63,647 nt of DNA, filler included, from Reclinomonas americana ATCC 50394 (GCA_048213135.1; 14 parts of 14 records of this genome joined end to end with filler, not necessarily neighbours in it); one strand, 5' to 3'. Shown: positions 24,048 through 28,361, counted from the first letter of the whole stretch. Notes: generated from the letters alone by a model not told the origin. Numbers and translations: made by a program.

Positions 24048-25145
24048 ATGTCAACGACTCCTCGTCCACTCCTCCTCTGCCAGCAAGTAGAGGGACACAC
24101 TGACTCAGTGTGGTCTGTCGCCGTCTCTCCGGATGGTCAGCATTTGGTGAGTGGGAGCGCGGACAAGACCGTGCGAGTGTGGACACTGGCGAGTGGAGAG
24201 GAGGTGCGACGGCTGGAGGGACACACTGGAGAGGTGCACTCTGTCGCCATCACTCCGGATGGTCAGCACGTTGTGAGTGGGTGTTTTGACATGACGGTGC
24301 GAGTGTGGTCACTGGCGAGTGGAGAGGAAGTGCGACAGTTGGAGGGTCACACTGGTGCGGTGACGTCTGTCGCTGTCTCTTCCGATGGTCAGCGCATTGT
24401 GAGTGCGAGTCAGGACAACACAGTGCGAGTGTGGTCTCTCTCGAGTGGCGAGGAAGTGTGCCGGCTGGAGGGGCATACAGCTTGGGTGATCTCTGTTGTT
24501 TTCACTCCCGATGGTCAGCACGTTGTGAGCGGAAGTACCGAAAAGACTGTGCAAGTGTGGTCGCTCGCCAGTGGACAGCAAGTGCGACGATTGGAGGGGC
24601 ACACTGGCTTCGTGTGGTCAGTCGCTATCACTCCCAATGGCCAGCACGTCGTAAGCGGGAGTGAGGACAAGACTGTGCGTGTGTGGTCTCTGGCAAGTGG
24701 AGAAGAGGTGCTGCGAATGGAGGGACACGCTCAACCGGTGCGCTCTGTTGCCGTCACTCCCCACGGCAAGTACGTTGTCAGTGGAAGCTGGGACGCGACA
24801 GTGCGAGTATGGTCACTGGCGAGTGGCGAAGAGGTGCGGCGGTTGGACGGCTACACTGACTGGGTGCACTCTGTCGCCGTCTCTCCCGATGGTCAACACA
24901 TTGCGAGTGGCGGCTTGGACGACACAGTGCTTGTGTGGTCCACTCCGTGCGGTCTTGCTCAGCTGGAACTCCGCACAGCGCAATCGGCAGTGGTGGCCGT
25001 GCAGGAGATGCAGCAGCAGCAGCAGAAAGAGGAGGAAGAGCCAGACTCTCGATGCTTGCCGGAGATGGTGCTGCGATGCTTCAATGTCGAGGAGGCGGAG
25101 GTCGTGGTGTACCGATCGTTTGGCGACCCCGAGATGCATCTGTGA
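24048..25145 (+). CDS. Intronless 7x WD40 protein with conserved C-terminal tail (cluster A, copy 1)
   Basis: Seven 42-aa GH...VW repeats; tail STPCGLAQ...DSRCLPEMVLRCF...DPEMHL. Confidence 0.93.
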   Translation: MSTTPRPLLLCQQVEGHTDSVWSVAVSPDGQHLVSGSADKTVRVWTLASGEEVRRLEGHTGEVHSVAITPDGQHVVSGCFDMTVRVWSLASGEEVRQLEGHTGAVTSVAVSSDGQRIVSASQDNTVRVWSLSSGEEVCRLEGHTAWVISVVFTPDGQHVVSGSTEKTVQVWSLASGQQVRRLEGHTGFVWSVAITPNGQHVVSGSEDKTVRVWSLASGEEVLRMEGHAQPVRSVAVTPHGKYVVSGSWDATVRVWSLASGEEVRRLDGYTDWVHSVAVSPDGQHIASGGLDDTVLVWSTPCGLAQLELRTAQSAVVAVQEMQQQQQKEEEEPDSRCLPEMVLRCFNVEEAEVVVYRSFGDPEMHL

Positions 25146-25426
25146 GTCGGTTGCCATGGGAGGCTGGAGCCGTCAGCTTTTGTTAGTCGTGCTTTGTCTG
25201 CCTCCTCTTCTTCTCCTCGCTGCGTGCTGCGGCTGTGAACGACGTCGAATGAAATGAGTGTGACTGTCGACGTCGGGATTTTACGCTTCGCTCTTCCTGT
25301 ACATGCATCATGGGTTGCCCACCGTTATATCACTGGTCAACCAGCAAGTGTGCGGTTGGAGACGACGACGTCAAAGGACATAATGTGTCACGCAGACACG
25401 CTCTCTCTCGCACACACACGAATTCC

Positions 25427-26521
25427 ATGTCTGCGACTCCCCGTCCACTCTTCCTCTGCCAGCGGGTGTTGGAGGGACACGCTGACACGGTGACTTCTGT
25501 CGCAATCACTCCCGATGGTCAGCATTTGGTGAGTGGGGGTGGCGACAAGACCGTGCGAGTGTGGTCACTGGCGGGTGGCAAGGAGGTTCGACGGTTGGAG
25601 GGACACACTGACACGGTGTGGTCTGTGGCCATTACTCCCGATGGCCAGCACGTTATCAGTGGGGGATGGGACAAGACGGTGCGTGTGTGGTCACTGGCGA
25701 GTGGAGAGGAAGTGCGACGGTTGGAGGGACACACTGGACGGGTGAACTCTGTGGCAGTTACTCCCGATGGTCAGCATGTTGTGAGTGGGTGTGGGGACTG
25801 GACAGTGCGTGTGTGGTCGCTGATGAGTGGCGAAGAAGTGCGGCGGGTGGAGGGACACGCTGCCGCGGTGAATTCCGTCGCCGTCACTCCCGACGGCAAG
25901 CATATCGTCAGCGGGAGTGCGGACATGACGGTGCGTGTGTGGTCACTGGAGAGTGGTGAGGAGGTGCGACGACTGGAGGGACACGCAGATTGCGTGCTGT
26001 CGGTTGCCGTCACTCCCGATGGTCAGCACGTAATGAGTGGGGGTTGGGACTGGACAGTGCGTGTGTGGTCGCTGACGAGTGACGAAGAAGTGCGACGGCT
26101 GGAGGGGCACACACAAGAGGTGAATTCTGTCGCCATCACTCGCGACGGGAGGCACGCCGCGAGTGGGAATGATGACAACACAGTGCGACTGTGGTCACTG
26201 GCAAGCGGAGATCAAGTGCAACAGCTGGTGGGTCACACTGGCTGGGTGATGTCCGTTGCTTTCGCTCCCGACGGGCAGCACATTGTGAGTGGGGGAGATG
26301 ACTCCAAAGTGCGACTGTGGTCCTCTCCGTGCGGCCTTGCTCAGCAGGAGCTCTTCGTCGCGCGCTTGGCGATGCTGGCCGTGCAGGAGATGCAGCAACA
26401 CCAGCAGGATGACGAGGTGGACTCGCGGTGCTTGCCGGAGATGGTGCTGCGCTGCTTCCTTGTCGAGGAGGCGGAGGTTGTGGTGTACCGATCGTTTGGC
26501 GACCGCGAGATGCATCTGTGA
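25427..26521 (+). CDS. Intronless 7x WD40 protein (cluster A, copy 2)
   Basis: Start MSATPRPLFLCQ inferred from paralogs; same repeats and tail. Confidence 0.93.
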   Translation: MSATPRPLFLCQRVLEGHADTVTSVAITPDGQHLVSGGGDKTVRVWSLAGGKEVRRLEGHTDTVWSVAITPDGQHVISGGWDKTVRVWSLASGEEVRRLEGHTGRVNSVAVTPDGQHVVSGCGDWTVRVWSLMSGEEVRRVEGHAAAVNSVAVTPDGKHIVSGSADMTVRVWSLESGEEVRRLEGHADCVLSVAVTPDGQHVMSGGWDWTVRVWSLTSDEEVRRLEGHTQEVNSVAITRDGRHAASGNDDNTVRLWSLASGDQVQQLVGHTGWVMSVAFAPDGQHIVSGGDDSKVRLWSSPCGLAQQELFVARLAMLAVQEMQQHQQDDEVDSRCLPEMVLRCFLVEEAEVVVYRSFGDREMHL

Positions 26522-26822
26522 GTCGGTTGCCATGGGGAATGAAGCCGTGAACTTTAGTTCATGTGCCTTCTCTTCCTCTTCTCCTTCGCATGCTGACTCT
26601 CATGATATTGAATAAATCGAGTGTGCCTGTTCAACGTCGGGGCTTTTGTTGCACGCCGAACACACAAGTGCGTCTTCCTCTGCATGCATCATGGGTTGCT
26701 CACCGTTTTTCATTGGTCAACCAGCAAATGTGCGGCTGGAGACGACGTCGGAAGTCTGCAAGTCTAAAGGACAGTCAATCCTTCATACGAGCTCGCTCGC
26801 TCTCTCTCACACACGAATGCCC

Positions 26823-27923
26823 ATGTCTGCGACTCCTCGTCCACTCTTCCTCTGCCAGCGTGTCTTGGAGGGCCACACTGAAGTGGTGGTTTCCGTCGCC
26901 GTCACTCGCGACGGCCACCACGTTGTGAGTGGGAGTCAAGACAAGACAGTGCGAGTGTGGTCTGTGGCAACCGGAGAAGAGGTGCGACGGCTGGAGGGAC
27001 ACGCAGATACTGTTTGGTCTGTGTCCGTCACTCTCGACGGCCAGCATGCTGTGAGTGGGAGTCATGACAAGACGGTGCGAGTGTGGTCGCTTGCAACTGG
27101 CGAAGAGGTGCGACTGTTGAAGGGACACACTCGCGCTGTGTTATGTGTGGTCATCACTCCCGATGGTCATCACGCTGTGAGTGGGAGTATGGACAAGACA
27201 GTGCGAATGTGGTCTCTGGTGAGTGGAGAAGAAGTGCGGCGGCTGGAGGGACACCCTGACTGGGTGTATGGTGTCGCCGTCACTCCCGACGGGAAGCATG
27301 TCGTCAGCGGTAATGCGGACATGACGCTGCGTGTGTGGTCACTGGAGAGTGGCGAGGAAGTGCGACGACTGGACGGTCACACTGACGGGGTGCTGTCTGT
27401 CGCTGTCACTCCCGATGGTCTGCACGTTGTGAGTGGCAGCCATGACAGTACGATACGTGTGTGGTCGCTGGTGAGTGGAGAAGAGGTGCAACGACTGGAG
27501 GATCACACTGACAGTGTACGATCCGTCGCCGTCACTCCCGACGGGCAGCACGTCATCAGCGGCGGTTTCGACGACACAGTGCGAGTGTGGTCGCTGGCGA
27601 GTGGCGAAGAAGTGCGACGATTGGAGGGACAAACTGACTGGGTTTCATCTGTGGCCGTCGCTCCCGACGGGCAGCACATCGTGAGTGGGGGTGATGACAA
27701 CACAATCCGCGTCTGGTCCACTCCATGCGGCCTCGCTCAGCAGGAGCTCCGCACAGCGCGCTCGGCAATGTTGGCGGTGCAGGAGATGCAACAGGAACTG
27801 CAGGAGGAGGAGGAAGAGCCGGACTCACGGTGCTTGCCGGAGATGGTGCTGCGCTGCTTCATTGTGGAGGAGGCAGAGGTCGTCGCGTACCGGTCGTTTG
27901 CCGACCCCGAGATGCATCTGTGA
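26823..27923 (+). CDS. Intronless 7x WD40 protein (cluster A, copy 3)
   Basis: Same leader, repeats and tail as copies 1-2. Confidence 0.93.
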   Translation: MSATPRPLFLCQRVLEGHTEVVVSVAVTRDGHHVVSGSQDKTVRVWSVATGEEVRRLEGHADTVWSVSVTLDGQHAVSGSHDKTVRVWSLATGEEVRLLKGHTRAVLCVVITPDGHHAVSGSMDKTVRMWSLVSGEEVRRLEGHPDWVYGVAVTPDGKHVVSGNADMTLRVWSLESGEEVRRLDGHTDGVLSVAVTPDGLHVVSGSHDSTIRVWSLVSGEEVQRLEDHTDSVRSVAVTPDGQHVISGGFDDTVRVWSLASGEEVRRLEGQTDWVSSVAVAPDGQHIVSGGDDNTIRVWSTPCGLAQQELRTARSAMLAVQEMQQELQEEEEEPDSRCLPEMVLRCFIVEEAEVVAYRSFADPEMHL

Positions 27924-28196
27924 GGCACATGACAAAGGAGGATGGAATGTTTGCTTTTGTTGGTCGTGCTTTCTCTGCCTTCTCTTCGTCTCCTCGTGCT
28001 GTTAACGATTGAAATGAGTGTGACTGTCGACGTCGGGGCTTCGATGCACGCCGATGCTTCACTCTTCCTTTGCGTGCGTCGTGGGTTGCTCACCGTTTTT
28101 TCATTGGTCAACCAGCAAGTGTGCAGTTGGAGACGACGACGTCGAGGGACATAAAAGTGTCACAGCACACTCCCTCGTCTCTCTCTCACGAATTCC

Positions 28197-28361
28197 ATGT
28201 CAGCAACTCCCCATCCACTCCTCCTCTGCCAGCGTGTCTTGGAGGGACACACTGACGTGGTGACTTCCGTCGCCGTCACTCGCGACGGCCACCATATTGT
28301 GAGTGGGAGCAAGGACACGACAGTTCGCGTGTGGTCACTGGTGAGTGGAGAGGAAGTGCAA
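28197..28361 (+). CDS. WD40 protein (cluster A, copy 4), truncated by gap
   Basis: MSATPHPLLLCQRVLEGH plus the first repeat. Confidence 0.85.

What the first reader, a model, noticed from the sequence alone, without database searches (positions are those of the whole stretch)
24048..28361. Tandem array of intronless, hypervariable WD40 propellers: candidate diversified recognition repertoire
Seen: at least 4 head-to-tail genes here and at least 4 at 52845-57819, all intronless in an otherwise intron-rich genome. Each is built from 126-nt repeats with a near-invariant scaffold (VAVTPDGQHVVSG..D.TVRVWSLASGEEVRRLEGH) and variation focused at GH-x-X-X-V-X and SG-X-X-D-X (e.g. DSVW, GEVH, AWVI, QPVR; SAD, CFD, SWD, GLD). 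Known: these positions form the top binding face of WD40 propellers, and the same pattern characterises the fungal HNWD (HET-D/E/R) non-self receptors. Inference: a stand-alone, NTPase-free family of diversifying binders in a protist, possibly for intracellular defence against viruses or bacteria.
Basis: partly seen in the sequence, partly recalled or inferred. Interest (0 to 1): 0.8.

Follow-up and report, generated by a model that had tools for sequence, protein, structure and literature searches.

The report
Hypervariable stand-alone WD40 propeller gene arrays
Two tandem arrays of intronless genes in a protist scaffold encode seven-blade WD40 propellers that keep one scaffold and one orphan C-terminal tail while swapping their ligand-contact residues unusually fast, which looks like a family of diversified intracellular binders.

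Summary
Cluster A (+, 24048-28361) has 3 complete genes and one 5' fragment cut by an assembly gap. Cluster B (-, 52845-57819) has 3 complete genes and two gap-cut fragments.

Across 46 aligned blades, variability peaks at unit positions 5, 6, 8, 24 and 26 (2.8-3.7 bits; most scaffold positions are under 1 bit). Positions 6, 8 and 24 are the published top-face contact positions R1-2, R1 and D-1, and they match the fungal HNWD selected codons.

A codon model with a shared synonymous rate gives omega far above 1 at these sites (LRT 81.8; 0 of 40 null simulations above 4.6). Scaffold omega is 0.27 and tail omega 0.26. The hot codons are saturated, so omega itself cannot be estimated.

Unlike HNWD, the repeats are old (66% mean nucleotide identity) and there is no NTPase. 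The tail has no Pfam or PDB match. It recurs in only three other proteins, one derived from a Reclinomonas americana EST. A defence role is untested.

The parts
24048..25145 (+). Gene A1: 365 aa, 7 WD40 blades plus C-terminal tail
   Evidence: Single ORF. Pfam WD40 7 stretches, E 4.8e-86. Units placed.
25427..26521 (+). Gene A2: 364 aa, 7 blades plus tail. Tail is residues ~298-364 (nt 26318-26518).
   Evidence: AF2 model has 28 strands (7 blades of 4) with block-mean pLDDT 90-98 over residues 11-300; the tail is two helices (301-325, 333-358) with block-mean pLDDT 40-72.
26823..27923 (+). Gene A3: 366 aa, 7 blades plus tail. An alternative ATG lies at 26817.
28197..28361 (+). Gene A4: 5' fragment (55 codons; N-terminal strand and blade 1), cut by the assembly gap at 28362-28461
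25146..25426 (+). Spacer A1-A2. It is homologous to spacers 26522-26822 and 27924-28196. A conserved GCATGCATCATGGGTTGC-like block lies about 125-140 nt upstream of each start codon.
   Evidence: Alignment. Pairwise K 0.20-0.39. The motif is found at 25301, 26682 and 28072, plus one 3-mismatch match at 17485 on the minus strand, outside the arrays: 4 matches against 0.10 expected by chance.
52845..53816 (-). Gene B1: 323 aa, only 6 blades, with blades 2 and 3 degenerate (no GH); tail intact
   Evidence: Unit HMM scores are 36 and 33 bits for blades 2 and 3, against 73-80 bits for its other blades. A 42-residue gap appears in the alignment.
54117..55211 (-). Gene B2: 364 aa, 7 blades plus tail
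55491..56579 (-). Gene B3: 362 aa, 7 blades plus tail
56878..57551 (-). Gene B4: 3' fragment (4 blades plus tail), 5' end lost in the gap at 57552-57651
57652..57819 (-). 5' fragment (ATG at 57819; N-terminal strand and blade 1) of B4 or of a further gene
   Evidence: Translation; tblastn hit.
53817..54116 (-). Spacer B2-B1. It is homologous to spacers 55212-55490 and 56580-56877.
   Evidence: K 0.13-0.52.

Best explanation
These genes form a paralogous family of small cytosolic adaptor-like proteins with a variable recognition face and a constant tail.

SHOWN. Each protein has a short N-terminal strand that closes a canonical seven-blade WD40 propeller, followed by a conserved, family-specific helical tail of about 60 residues. 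The propeller scaffold and the tail are held by purifying selection. In each blade, the three positions that make top-face contacts in solved WD40 complexes (R1-2, R1 and D-1, which are unit positions 6, 8 and 24) have been replaced several times faster than synonymous sites. Positions 5 and 26 show the same trend more weakly. The hot positions are enriched in Trp, Phe and Tyr.

INFERRED. Each paralogue therefore offers a different binding surface on the same scaffold and binds a different ligand. The invariant tail couples all of them to one shared partner or effector. The arrays grow by tandem duplication of a gene-plus-spacer unit of about 1.4 kb. What the ligands are (foreign or endogenous) is not known.
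For: ARCHITECTURE. The AF2 model has mean pLDDT 87.9 and 28 strands. The best Foldseek matches are symmetric or highly repetitive 7-blade WD40s (7big, 5yzv, 2ymu; rmsd 0.8-1.0 A; 41-42% identity).

VARIABILITY. The five highest-entropy positions of 42 are 5, 6, 8, 24 and 26. All 46 of 46 blades carry a different residue combination at 6/8/24/26.

CODON MODEL (own ML script; shared synonymous branch lengths). Top-5 sites give omega 3.0, scaffold 0.27, tail 0.26, LRT 55.5. Per position, omega exceeds 1 and passes Bonferroni at 3 of 42 positions: 6, 8 and 24 (2dlnL 15.4, 45.6, 48.1). Position 5 has omega 2.0 (p = 0.012). Position 26 has omega 1.2 (not significant).

A PRIORI PARTITION. The partition was taken from Wu et al. 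2012 (PMC3419727, passages read). It gives LRT 81.8 on all 7 sequences, 52.6 on cluster A alone and 17.2 on cluster B alone. In 40 parametric simulations under omega = 1, the largest LRT was 4.54 and omega estimates ranged 0.72-1.32.

CLOSEST BLADE PAIRS. In the 7 closest pairs, 16 of 21 hot codons changed residue. Hot-codon pN is 0.535 against pS 0.286 in the remaining codons (Fisher p = 0.0015).

NEUTRAL REFERENCE. Hot-codon dN of 0.68-1.24 between close paralogues exceeds spacer divergence K of 0.13-0.52.

NO LOCAL HYPERMUTATION. Codons 7 and 25, which sit between or next to hot codons, have pS 0.225 and 0.508, against 0.56 overall.

NOT NEUTRAL DRIFT. Trp makes up 18 of 136 hot residues, 9.75 times the expectation (p = 6.6e-13). 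Phe and Tyr are about 2.8 times enriched.

TAIL AS A CONSTANT MODULE. 28 columns of the 7-sequence tail alignment are invariant and omega is 0.26. The tail recurs on two very divergent propellers of similar length: P0123 (381 aa) and P0125 (394 aa), which are 22-32% identical to the window genes.

TRANSCRIPTION. P0121 is 81% identical to the last 115 residues of A3. Its source label is an EST-derived protein of Reclinomonas americana.
Against: SATURATION. When the hot codons are given their own rate multiplier, the model prefers rho of 5-55 with omega below 1. The LRT for omega = 1 then falls to 1.9-4.2 for sites 6, 8 and 24 and points towards omega below 1. The codons are saturated, so omega is not identifiable. 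What is shown is 'at least 3-5 times more change than the gene-wide synonymous rate', not a measured omega.

AGE. The copies are old. Scaffold dS is 0.5-1.1 and the tail dS 0.32-0.52 between close paralogues within a cluster, up to 1.58 across clusters. The diversification could be ancient and finished.

SMALL SAMPLE. Only 7 sequences come from a single haplotype. There are no population data and no orthologues with DNA.

ASCERTAINMENT. The blade pairs were picked by overall identity, which mildly biases pS downwards.

MISSING EVIDENCE. No ligand and no tail partner is known. The tail fold is of low confidence (block-mean pLDDT 40-72). There is no transcript evidence for the window's own copies. 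B1 has lost a blade and may be decaying.
Confidence: 0.55

Rival explanations
1. These are ancient, subfunctionalised housekeeping paralogues. The duplicates diverged long ago to bind a fixed set of endogenous partners, and their top faces are now conserved. There is no continuing diversification and no link to non-self recognition.
For: Synonymous divergence is large: scaffold dS is 0.5-1.1 between paralogues and mean unit nucleotide identity is 66%. The hot codons are saturated, so the timing cannot be resolved. Scaffold and tail are under clear purifying selection.
Against: Even the youngest blade pairs (83-88% nucleotide identity) differ at 11 of 12 hot codons, and across the 7 closest pairs 16 of 21 differ. 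The family is extremely narrow: only 3 true tail-bearing clusters among 1.84 billion representatives. That does not fit conserved housekeeping partners. Tandem arrays with homogenised spacers indicate continuing array dynamics.
Confidence: 0.25
2. This is a mechanistic refinement of the best explanation. The proteins would be substrate receptors of a ubiquitin-ligase-type machine. The tail would be a short helical adaptor-binding box, comparable in role to the F-box or SOCS box of WD40 substrate receptors (comparison recalled, not tested), and the variable propeller would select substrates.
For: The architecture is a variable propeller plus a short constant helical module under purifying selection. 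The tail has an invariant core (SRCLPE.VLRCF.VEEA) that is shared in part with P0123 and P0125.
Against: 0 of 4 tails matched any Pfam family at E <= 10, so none matched F-box or SOCS box. The tail profile found 0 PDB chains at E <= 10. No Atlas hit reached 0.9.
Confidence: 0.15
3. Relaxed constraint: the loop positions simply drift neutrally on a rigid scaffold.
For: All-pairs pN/pS at the hot positions is 0.67-1.17, which is near 1. Positions 4, 19, 26 and 40 have omega of about 1.
Against: The LRT against omega = 1 is 81.8, against a maximum of 4.54 in 40 null simulations. Trp is 9.75-fold enriched, and Phe and Tyr are also enriched. Hot-codon dN exceeds both synonymous and spacer divergence.
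Confidence: 0.05
4. Bacterial origin: the arrays are either a bacterial contaminant contig or a recent transfer of a bacterial sensor-type WD40 domain.
For: The genes are intronless. The best 120 database hits cover only the propeller, at up to 60% identity. All 8 of the 8 rows that carry an organism name are bacteria. Several hits carry TIR_2, NB-ARC, trypsin-like or caspase domains (P0003 and P0012 inspected).
Against: The tail has no relative in 185,579 prokaryote genomes: 1 of 15 pattern matches passed tblastn, over only 18 residues, and I judge it chance. It also has none in the metagenome contigs (0 of 107). A relative is labelled as a eukaryote EST product. The contigs carry the same CT/GA-rich low-complexity DNA as the rest of the window. 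GC3 of 0.64-0.65 lies within the range of neighbouring ORFs, 0.63-0.76. Consensus-like WD40 repeats resemble one another without any transfer. An old transfer of the propeller part alone is not excluded.
Confidence: 0.05

Closest known systems
Fungal HNWD/NWD NOD-like receptors (HET-D, HET-E, HET-R) of Podospora anserina (Paoletti et al. 2007, PMC1805685, passages read; Chevanne et al. 2010, PMC2873952, listing only)
   Same: Both have 42-residue WD40 repeats with a near-constant scaffold. The same four codons are hypervariable: two flanking the conserved Val at the start of strand a, and two flanking the conserved Asp of the b-c turn. All four lie on the top face. Nearly every repeat carries a unique combination: 46 of 46 here, against 55 combinations in 69 repeats there.
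   Different: There is no HET or NACHT domain here. The propeller has exactly 7 blades rather than 10 or more repeats. The repeats are old and are not homogenised (66% mean nucleotide identity, pS 0.56), so there is no sign of family-wide concerted evolution of the repeats. There is an orphan C-terminal tail. The genes lie in tandem arrays. The host is a protist.
Highly or moderately repetitive WD40 proteins of bacteria and lower eukaryotes (Hu et al. 2017, PMC5587647, passages read), including WD40 sensor domains fused to TIR, NB-ARC, caspase or trypsin domains
   Same: These are the best sequence matches (up to 60% identity over the propeller) and the best structural matches (5yzv, 2ymu). 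They share the same scaffold consensus and the same variable slots (P0003 and P0012).
   Different: The window proteins are stand-alone, have no N-terminal effector or NTPase, and carry the tail. Internal amino-acid identity of 0.50-0.65 places them in the 'moderately repetitive' class, not 'highly repetitive'.
P0123 (381 aa) and P0125 (394 aa), unnamed proteins from assembled public reads
   Same: They share the same overall plan and length, a propeller followed by the same tail (profile E 3.1e-09 and 9.4e-05). They are the only other full-length bearers of the tail.
   Different: Their blades are divergent and not consensus-like (Pfam WD40 E 0.0037 and 6e-13; PQQ_2-like for P0123). They are 22-32% identical to the window genes.
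WD40 substrate receptors with a short helical adaptor box (F-box/WD40 and WD40/SOCS-box proteins; recalled knowledge, no call)
   Same: The logic is the same: a propeller selects the target and a short constant helical motif docks to shared machinery. Such receptor families are recalled to expand in tandem and evolve fast.
   Different: No F-box or SOCS-box signal was found in the tail. The partner is unknown.

Membership tests
WD40 repeat beta-propeller (Pfam PF00400) | Repeated ~40-residue units matching the WD40 profile and folding into a closed propeller | tested here: met
   7 stretches in A1, A2, A3, B2 and B3 (E 1e-72 to 1e-87), 4 in B1. The AF2 model has 7 blades of 4 strands with an N-terminal closing strand. 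Foldseek rmsd to solved WD40s is 0.8-1.0 A.
Fungal HNWD/NWD NLRs | Central NACHT NTPase domain | tested here: not met
   The ~365-aa proteins are filled by 15 N-terminal residues, 294 propeller residues and the tail. Only propeller families appear among the best 25 Pfam families shown per protein. The upstream spacers end at the previous gene's stop codon.
Fungal HNWD/NWD NLRs | N-terminal effector (HET) domain | tested here: not met
   The N-terminus is a 15-residue closing strand. Four upstream or flanking ORFs had 0 Pfam hits at E <= 0.01.
Fungal HNWD/NWD NLRs | Repeats kept highly alike within and between genes by concerted evolution | tested here: not met
   Mean unit nucleotide identity is 0.66. 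Each unit's best match is 0.64-0.88 identical (0.75 or more for 33 of the 46 units), and the best match sits at the same blade index for only part of the units. All-pairs pS is 0.56.
Fungal HNWD/NWD NLRs | Positive selection at the four top-face codons flanking the conserved Val and Asp | tested here: met
   Omega exceeds 1 and is significant at 3 of the 4 codons (6, 8, 24). Position 26 has omega 1.19, not significant. Caveat: saturation.
Highly-Repetitive WD40 (Hu et al. 2017; internal identity >= 0.7) | Internal repeat identity of at least 0.7 | tested here: not met
   Mean internal amino-acid identity is 0.64-0.65 in the A genes and 0.50-0.56 in the B genes. My measure is the plain pairwise mean, not the paper's exact procedure. 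The values fall in the paper's 'moderately repetitive' band.
F-box or SOCS-box substrate receptors | A recognisable F-box or SOCS-box domain | tested here: not met
   0 of 4 tails matched any Pfam family at E <= 10. The tail profile found 0 PDB chains at E <= 10.
New 'propeller plus LRCF-tail' family (window genes, P0121, P0123, P0125) | C-terminal two-helix tail with the conserved core around ..VLRCF..E[DE].. | tested here: met
   All 7 tails present in the window align, with 28 invariant columns. The profile recovers P0121 (E 6.4e-31), P0123 (3.1e-09) and P0125 (9.4e-05) from 1.84 billion representatives.

The most novel reading that the evidence does not exclude
This could be a previously undescribed, NLR-independent intracellular recognition repertoire in a deep-branching heterotrophic flagellate. 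Arrays of stand-alone WD40 propellers would have top-face contact residues kept diverse by selection to bind foreign molecules from prey bacteria, endosymbionts or viruses. All of them would be wired through one orphan C-terminal helical tail to a common effector, possibly a ubiquitin-type machine or the NACHT/WD40 STAND protein encoded on the next contig.
Probability: 0.2. Interest if true: 0.8.

Novelty: new variant of a known kind. Interest (0 to 1): 0.55.

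Why it matters
Repeat proteins with a constant scaffold and hypervariable contact residues are the recurring solution for recognition repertoires. Examples are fungal and bacterial STAND/NLR sensors, and, from recalled knowledge, lamprey VLRs and plant NLRs.

Here the same four WD40 codons that diversify in fungal allorecognition receptors diversify in a family that lacks the NTPase switch altogether and carries an orphan tail instead. 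The host appears to be a jakobid-like protist, a lineage in which nothing is known about self/non-self or prey recognition.

If the tail proves to be a coupling module, this would be a new way of wiring a WD40 sensor to an output. The scaffold would also be a natural library of propeller binders.

If instead the paralogues are old housekeeping adaptors, the finding is an ordinary gene family with a new C-terminal domain.

Tried and rejected
- WHOLE GENOME. None is held, so no genome-wide census was possible.
- EARLIER FINDINGS.
- SEQUENCING RUNS. None was listed and no RNA holder was listed.
- WORD-BASED SEARCH WITH THE TAIL. 2 candidates, none with E <= 0.01.
- WHOLE-PROTEIN SEARCH. 3948 hits among 8000 scored candidates. 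Of the best 120, 119 cover 88% or less of the query, i.e. only the propeller. P0100 covers 98% but on inspection has no tail similarity.
- SEARCH WITH P0123. It found only itself.
- TAIL PROFILE HITS P0122 AND P0124. Rejected as repeat or low-complexity matches to part of the profile (14 and 8 stretches; profile positions 1-21 and 16-42).
- TAIL AGAINST PFAM, PDB sequences and the ESM Atlas (best score 0.76, below the lead threshold): nothing.
- FIND_RELATED_LOCI WITH THE TAIL. Metagenome contigs: 0 of 107 pattern matches confirmed. Prokaryote genomes: 1 of 15 confirmed, over 18 residues, judged chance.
- PREDICT_COMPLEX, TWO COPIES OF THE TAIL. No verdict (score 0.01; controls not run; the alignment was not used).
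- LINK TO THE WD40 PROTEINS Gcp1-3 of the mitochondrial T2SS paper (PMC8134430, passages read). Considered and dropped. Those proteins are described as Pex7-like, and nothing ties them to this family.
- PEROXISOMAL PTS1 READING OF THE C-TERMINI (..MHL, ..LCL, ..LHL). Considered and dropped because they do not fit the recalled consensus. No tool test was run.
- LITERATURE SEARCHES. No paper was found on stand-alone WD40 arrays in jakobids or other protists. Supplements were not consulted.
- FRAME SLIPS were corrected.

Full report
WHAT IS THERE

The window is not one continuous sequence. It is 14 contigs joined by 13 linkers of 100 bases (N runs around TTAATTAATTAA). The finding's first locus is one contig (22304-28361) and the second locus another (51725-57551). 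Their order and the 24-kb spacing between them are therefore unproven.

On the first contig, three complete single-ORF genes lie head to tail on the + strand: 24048-25145, 25427-26521 and 26823-27923. A fourth starts at 28197 and is cut by the gap after 55 codons. On the second contig, three complete genes lie head to tail on the - strand: 52845-53816, 54117-55211 and 55491-56579. They are followed by a 3' fragment (56878-57551) and, beyond the gap, a 5' fragment that starts at the ATG at 57819.

Tandem Repeats Finder reports a 126-nt period with 6.5-6.6 copies at 74% matches in each A gene, and shorter stretches in the B genes. Pfam finds seven WD40 repeats in five of the six complete proteins and four in B1.

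ANATOMY OF THE PROTEINS

A profile built from the seven units of A1 places 46 units in the eight gene pieces that were analysed. The 57652-57819 fragment was found later and was not included.

Each complete protein has about 15 N-terminal residues, then seven 42-residue units, then a tail. An AlphaFold2 model of A2, built from the six paralogues as its alignment, has mean pLDDT 87.9. It shows 28 strands forming seven four-stranded blades, with the N-terminal strand completing the last blade. It also shows two C-terminal helices (301-325 and 333-358) at low confidence. Foldseek's best matches are designed symmetric propellers and highly repetitive bacterial WD40 domains (7big, 5yzv, 2ymu; rmsd 0.8-1.0 A; 41-42% identity). 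Nothing matches the tail.

B1 lacks one blade, and two of its blades have lost the GH dipeptide. It may be decaying.

THE TAIL

They are the most family-specific part.

- The seven tails in the window align with 28 invariant columns, including the core SRCLPE.VLRCF.VEEA.
- They match no Pfam family even at E <= 10 (0 of 4 tails).
- They match no PDB chain.
- Nothing useful turned up in the ESM Atlas.

A profile of the tail was searched against 1.84 billion representative proteins and gave five hits at E <= 0.001. Two of these (P0122, P0124) are repeat artefacts. Three are real.

- P0121 is a 116-residue fragment, 81% identical to the C-terminal end of A3. Its source label is an EST-derived protein of the jakobid Reclinomonas americana.
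- P0123 (381 aa) and P0125 (394 aa) are full-length proteins of the same size whose propellers are only 22-32% identical to the window genes, yet they end in the same tail.

Pattern scans found no confirmed relative of the tail in metagenome contigs (0 of 107 matches) or in 185,579 prokaryote genomes (1 of 15 matches, over 18 residues, judged chance).

So 'propeller plus this tail' is a real, very narrowly distributed eukaryotic family, and at least one member is transcribed. By inference, the window comes from that jakobid or a relative.

WHERE THE VARIATION LIES

Units are numbered from the Glu before GH. Entropy is 2.77, 3.51, 3.57, 3.67 and 2.95 bits at positions 5, 6, 8, 24 and 26, with 11-16 residue types each. 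The next highest position reaches 2.09 bits. Most scaffold positions are below 1 bit, and Ser21 is invariant.

Positions 6, 8 and 24 are the R1-2, R1 and D-1 positions of Wu et al. 2012. That paper found them to make the top-face contacts in 29 solved WD40 complexes (PMC3419727, passages read). Positions 6, 8, 24 and 26 correspond to codons 7, 9, 25 and 27 of Paoletti et al. 2007, which flank the purified codons 8 and 26 in the Podospora HNWD family (PMC1805685, passages read).

All 46 of 46 units differ in their 6/8/24/26 combination. The hot positions are strongly enriched in Trp (18 of 136 residues, 9.75 times the expectation from codon composition, p = 6.6e-13), and about 2.8-fold in Phe and Tyr. 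That is what binding hot spots look like, not drifting loops.

IS IT SELECTION?

I wrote a GY94-type codon model (F3x4 frequencies, branch lengths in synonymous substitutions shared by all partitions) and ran it on the iqtree topology of the seven sequences.

- With the five top-entropy positions as one class: omega is 3.0, against 0.27 for the scaffold and 0.26 for the tail, with LRT 55.5 against omega = 1.
- Position by position: omega exceeds 1 and survives Bonferroni correction at 3 of 42 positions (6, 8, 24). Position 5 is nominal (omega 2.0, p = 0.012). Position 26 is neutral-like (1.19). Positions 4, 19 and 40 are about 1. Of the other 34 positions, 28 are significantly below 1 after the same Bonferroni correction; positions 12, 14, 37 and 41 are below 1 only nominally (p 0.008-0.024) and positions 9 and 23 do not differ from 1.
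- With the a priori partition from the structural literature (6, 8, 24): LRT 81.8 on all sequences, 52.6 on cluster A alone and 17.2 on cluster B alone.
- Forty parametric simulations under omega = 1 gave a maximum LRT of 4.54 and omega estimates of 0.72-1.32. The test is therefore calibrated.
- In the seven most similar blade pairs, 16 of 21 hot codons changed residue. Hot-codon pN is 0.535, against 0.286 for synonymous sites of the other codons (Fisher p = 0.0015).
- Spacers between genes, a rough neutral yardstick, differ by K = 0.13-0.52 within a cluster. This is less than the hot-codon dN of 0.68-1.24.

THE LIMIT OF THAT RESULT

If the hot codons are allowed their own rate multiplier, the model prefers a very large multiplier (5-55) with omega below 1. 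The evidence for omega above 1 then disappears. The codons are simply saturated, and with seven old sequences omega cannot be estimated.

What is shown is that these codons have changed at least 3-5 times more than the gene-wide synonymous rate predicts. A codon-specific mutation hot spot is the only alternative to selection. It is unlikely, because codons 7 and 25, which sit between and beside the hot codons, have average or below-average synonymous divergence (pS 0.225 and 0.508 against 0.56).

Whether diversification is continuing or ancient cannot be decided. Paralogue dS is 0.3-1.1.

HOW IT DIFFERS FROM THE FUNGAL MODEL

The HNWD system depends on near-identical repeats that are shuffled and homogenised across the family. 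Here the units are 66% identical on average at nucleotide level. Positional orthology is still partly visible (A1r1-A2r1, A1r2-A2r2, A2r4-A3r4, the last blades, and B3r5-7 with B4r2-4). Synonymous sites are far from homogenised.

Homogenisation does seem to act on the spacers. The spacers B2-B1 and B3-B2 differ by K = 0.13, while the flanking genes have scaffold dS of about 0.9.

There is no NACHT or other NTPase in these genes. Their size leaves no room for one, and the 273-301-bp spacers run from one stop codon to the next start. Internal amino-acid identity of 0.50-0.65 places them in the 'moderately repetitive' band of Hu et al. 2017 (PMC5587647, passages read).

RELATION TO BACTERIAL WD40S

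The best database matches to the propeller (up to 60% identity, covering about 80% of the query) are metagenomic or bacterial proteins. All 8 of the 8 rows with an organism name are bacteria. Several hits carry TIR, NB-ARC, trypsin-like or caspase domains. P0003 and P0012 show the same scaffold and the same variable slots.

This places the propeller in the 'sensor-type' consensus-like WD40 class. It does not prove transfer, because consensus-like repeats converge. The eukaryote-only tail, the EST-derived relative, and the base composition (GC3 0.64-0.65, against 0.63-0.76 in neighbouring ORFs) all argue against contamination.

SURROUNDINGS

- On the next contig, on the - strand (about 30179-35641), a gene split over at least five ORF pieces encodes a P-loop NTPase. 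It has Walker A GDAASGKST and Walker B LLDGFDE, and weak NACHT and nSTAND Pfam hits (E 5.5e-4, below the curated cut-off). It also has pentapeptide repeats and WD40 repeats of an ordinary, divergent kind. A STAND/NLR-like gene is therefore a neighbour of the array in scaffold order. No functional link is shown.
- In cluster A, a conserved block containing GCATGCA lies 125-141 nt upstream of each start codon. The search gave 4 matches in the window, three of them at the A spacers, against 0.10 expected. This is a candidate shared promoter element.

VERDICT

Most likely (0.55), these genes are a family of diversified intracellular binders: a constant propeller scaffold and a constant orphan tail, with contact residues replaced faster than neutral expectation.

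- Shown: the architecture, the location of the variability, the excess of replacement, and purifying selection on the scaffold and tail.
- Inferred: ligand diversity and the coupling role of the tail.
- Unknown: the ligands, the tail's partner, and any role in defence.

This is a new variant of a known kind (hypervariable consensus-type WD40 sensors), not a member of the HNWD family.

Noticed in passing
window 30179-35641 (-), contig 28462-36251: An NLR-like STAND gene split over at least 5 ORF pieces. It has a P-loop NTPase with Walker A GDAASGKST and Walker B LLDGFDE (weak NACHT and nSTAND_NTPase5 Pfam hits, E 5.5e-4 and 8.8e-4, below the curated cut-offs). This is followed by pentapeptide repeats (E 7.4e-13) and ordinary WD40 repeats. 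It is adjacent in scaffold order to the stand-alone WD40 array.
   Followed up: partly
window, 13 positions (5067, 13939, 22204, 28362, 36252, 37495, 38874, 44552, 50134, 51625, 57552, 58694, 61340): Each gap is exactly 100 bases: N runs around TTAATTAATTAA, an all-frame stop linker. The window is therefore a string of joined contigs, and distances and perhaps order across the gaps are unknown.
   Followed up: yes
window 25301-25318, 26682-26699, 28072-28089 (+): A conserved GCATGCATCATGGGTTGC-like block lies 125-141 nt upstream of the A2, A3 and A4 start codons, followed by a GGAGACGACGACG-like stretch. It is a candidate shared promoter element of the array unit.
   Followed up: partly
window 53817-54116 vs 55212-55490 (-): The spacers B2-B1 and B3-B2 differ by only K = 0.13, while the genes around them have scaffold dS of about 0.9-1.1. 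This mosaic history suggests gene conversion or unequal crossing-over that homogenises the spacers but not the propellers.
   Followed up: partly
window 42312-49302 (+): Very long ORFs (763, 719 and 1031 codons, interrupted by the gap at 44552) carry fibronectin type III domains (E 1.6e-22 and 2.2e-09). This is a large fn3-repeat protein, which is unusual for a free-living flagellate.
   Followed up: no
window 20832-22202 (+): An ORF with an ERCC4 nuclease domain (E 1.1e-05) sits behind a long low-complexity Pro/Ala/Thr-rich region and is cut by the gap at 22204.
   Followed up: no
window 18369-19191 and 19565-19877: CT-rich tandem repeats of 151 bp (5.6 copies, 83% matches) and 98 bp (3.2 copies, 93% matches). 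Many GA/CT-rich microsatellite-like tracts occur across the window.
   Followed up: no
window 52845-53816 (-): Gene B1 keeps an open frame and an intact tail, but it has lost one blade and the GH and tetrad residues of two others. It may be a decaying member or a six-blade variant.
   Followed up: partly
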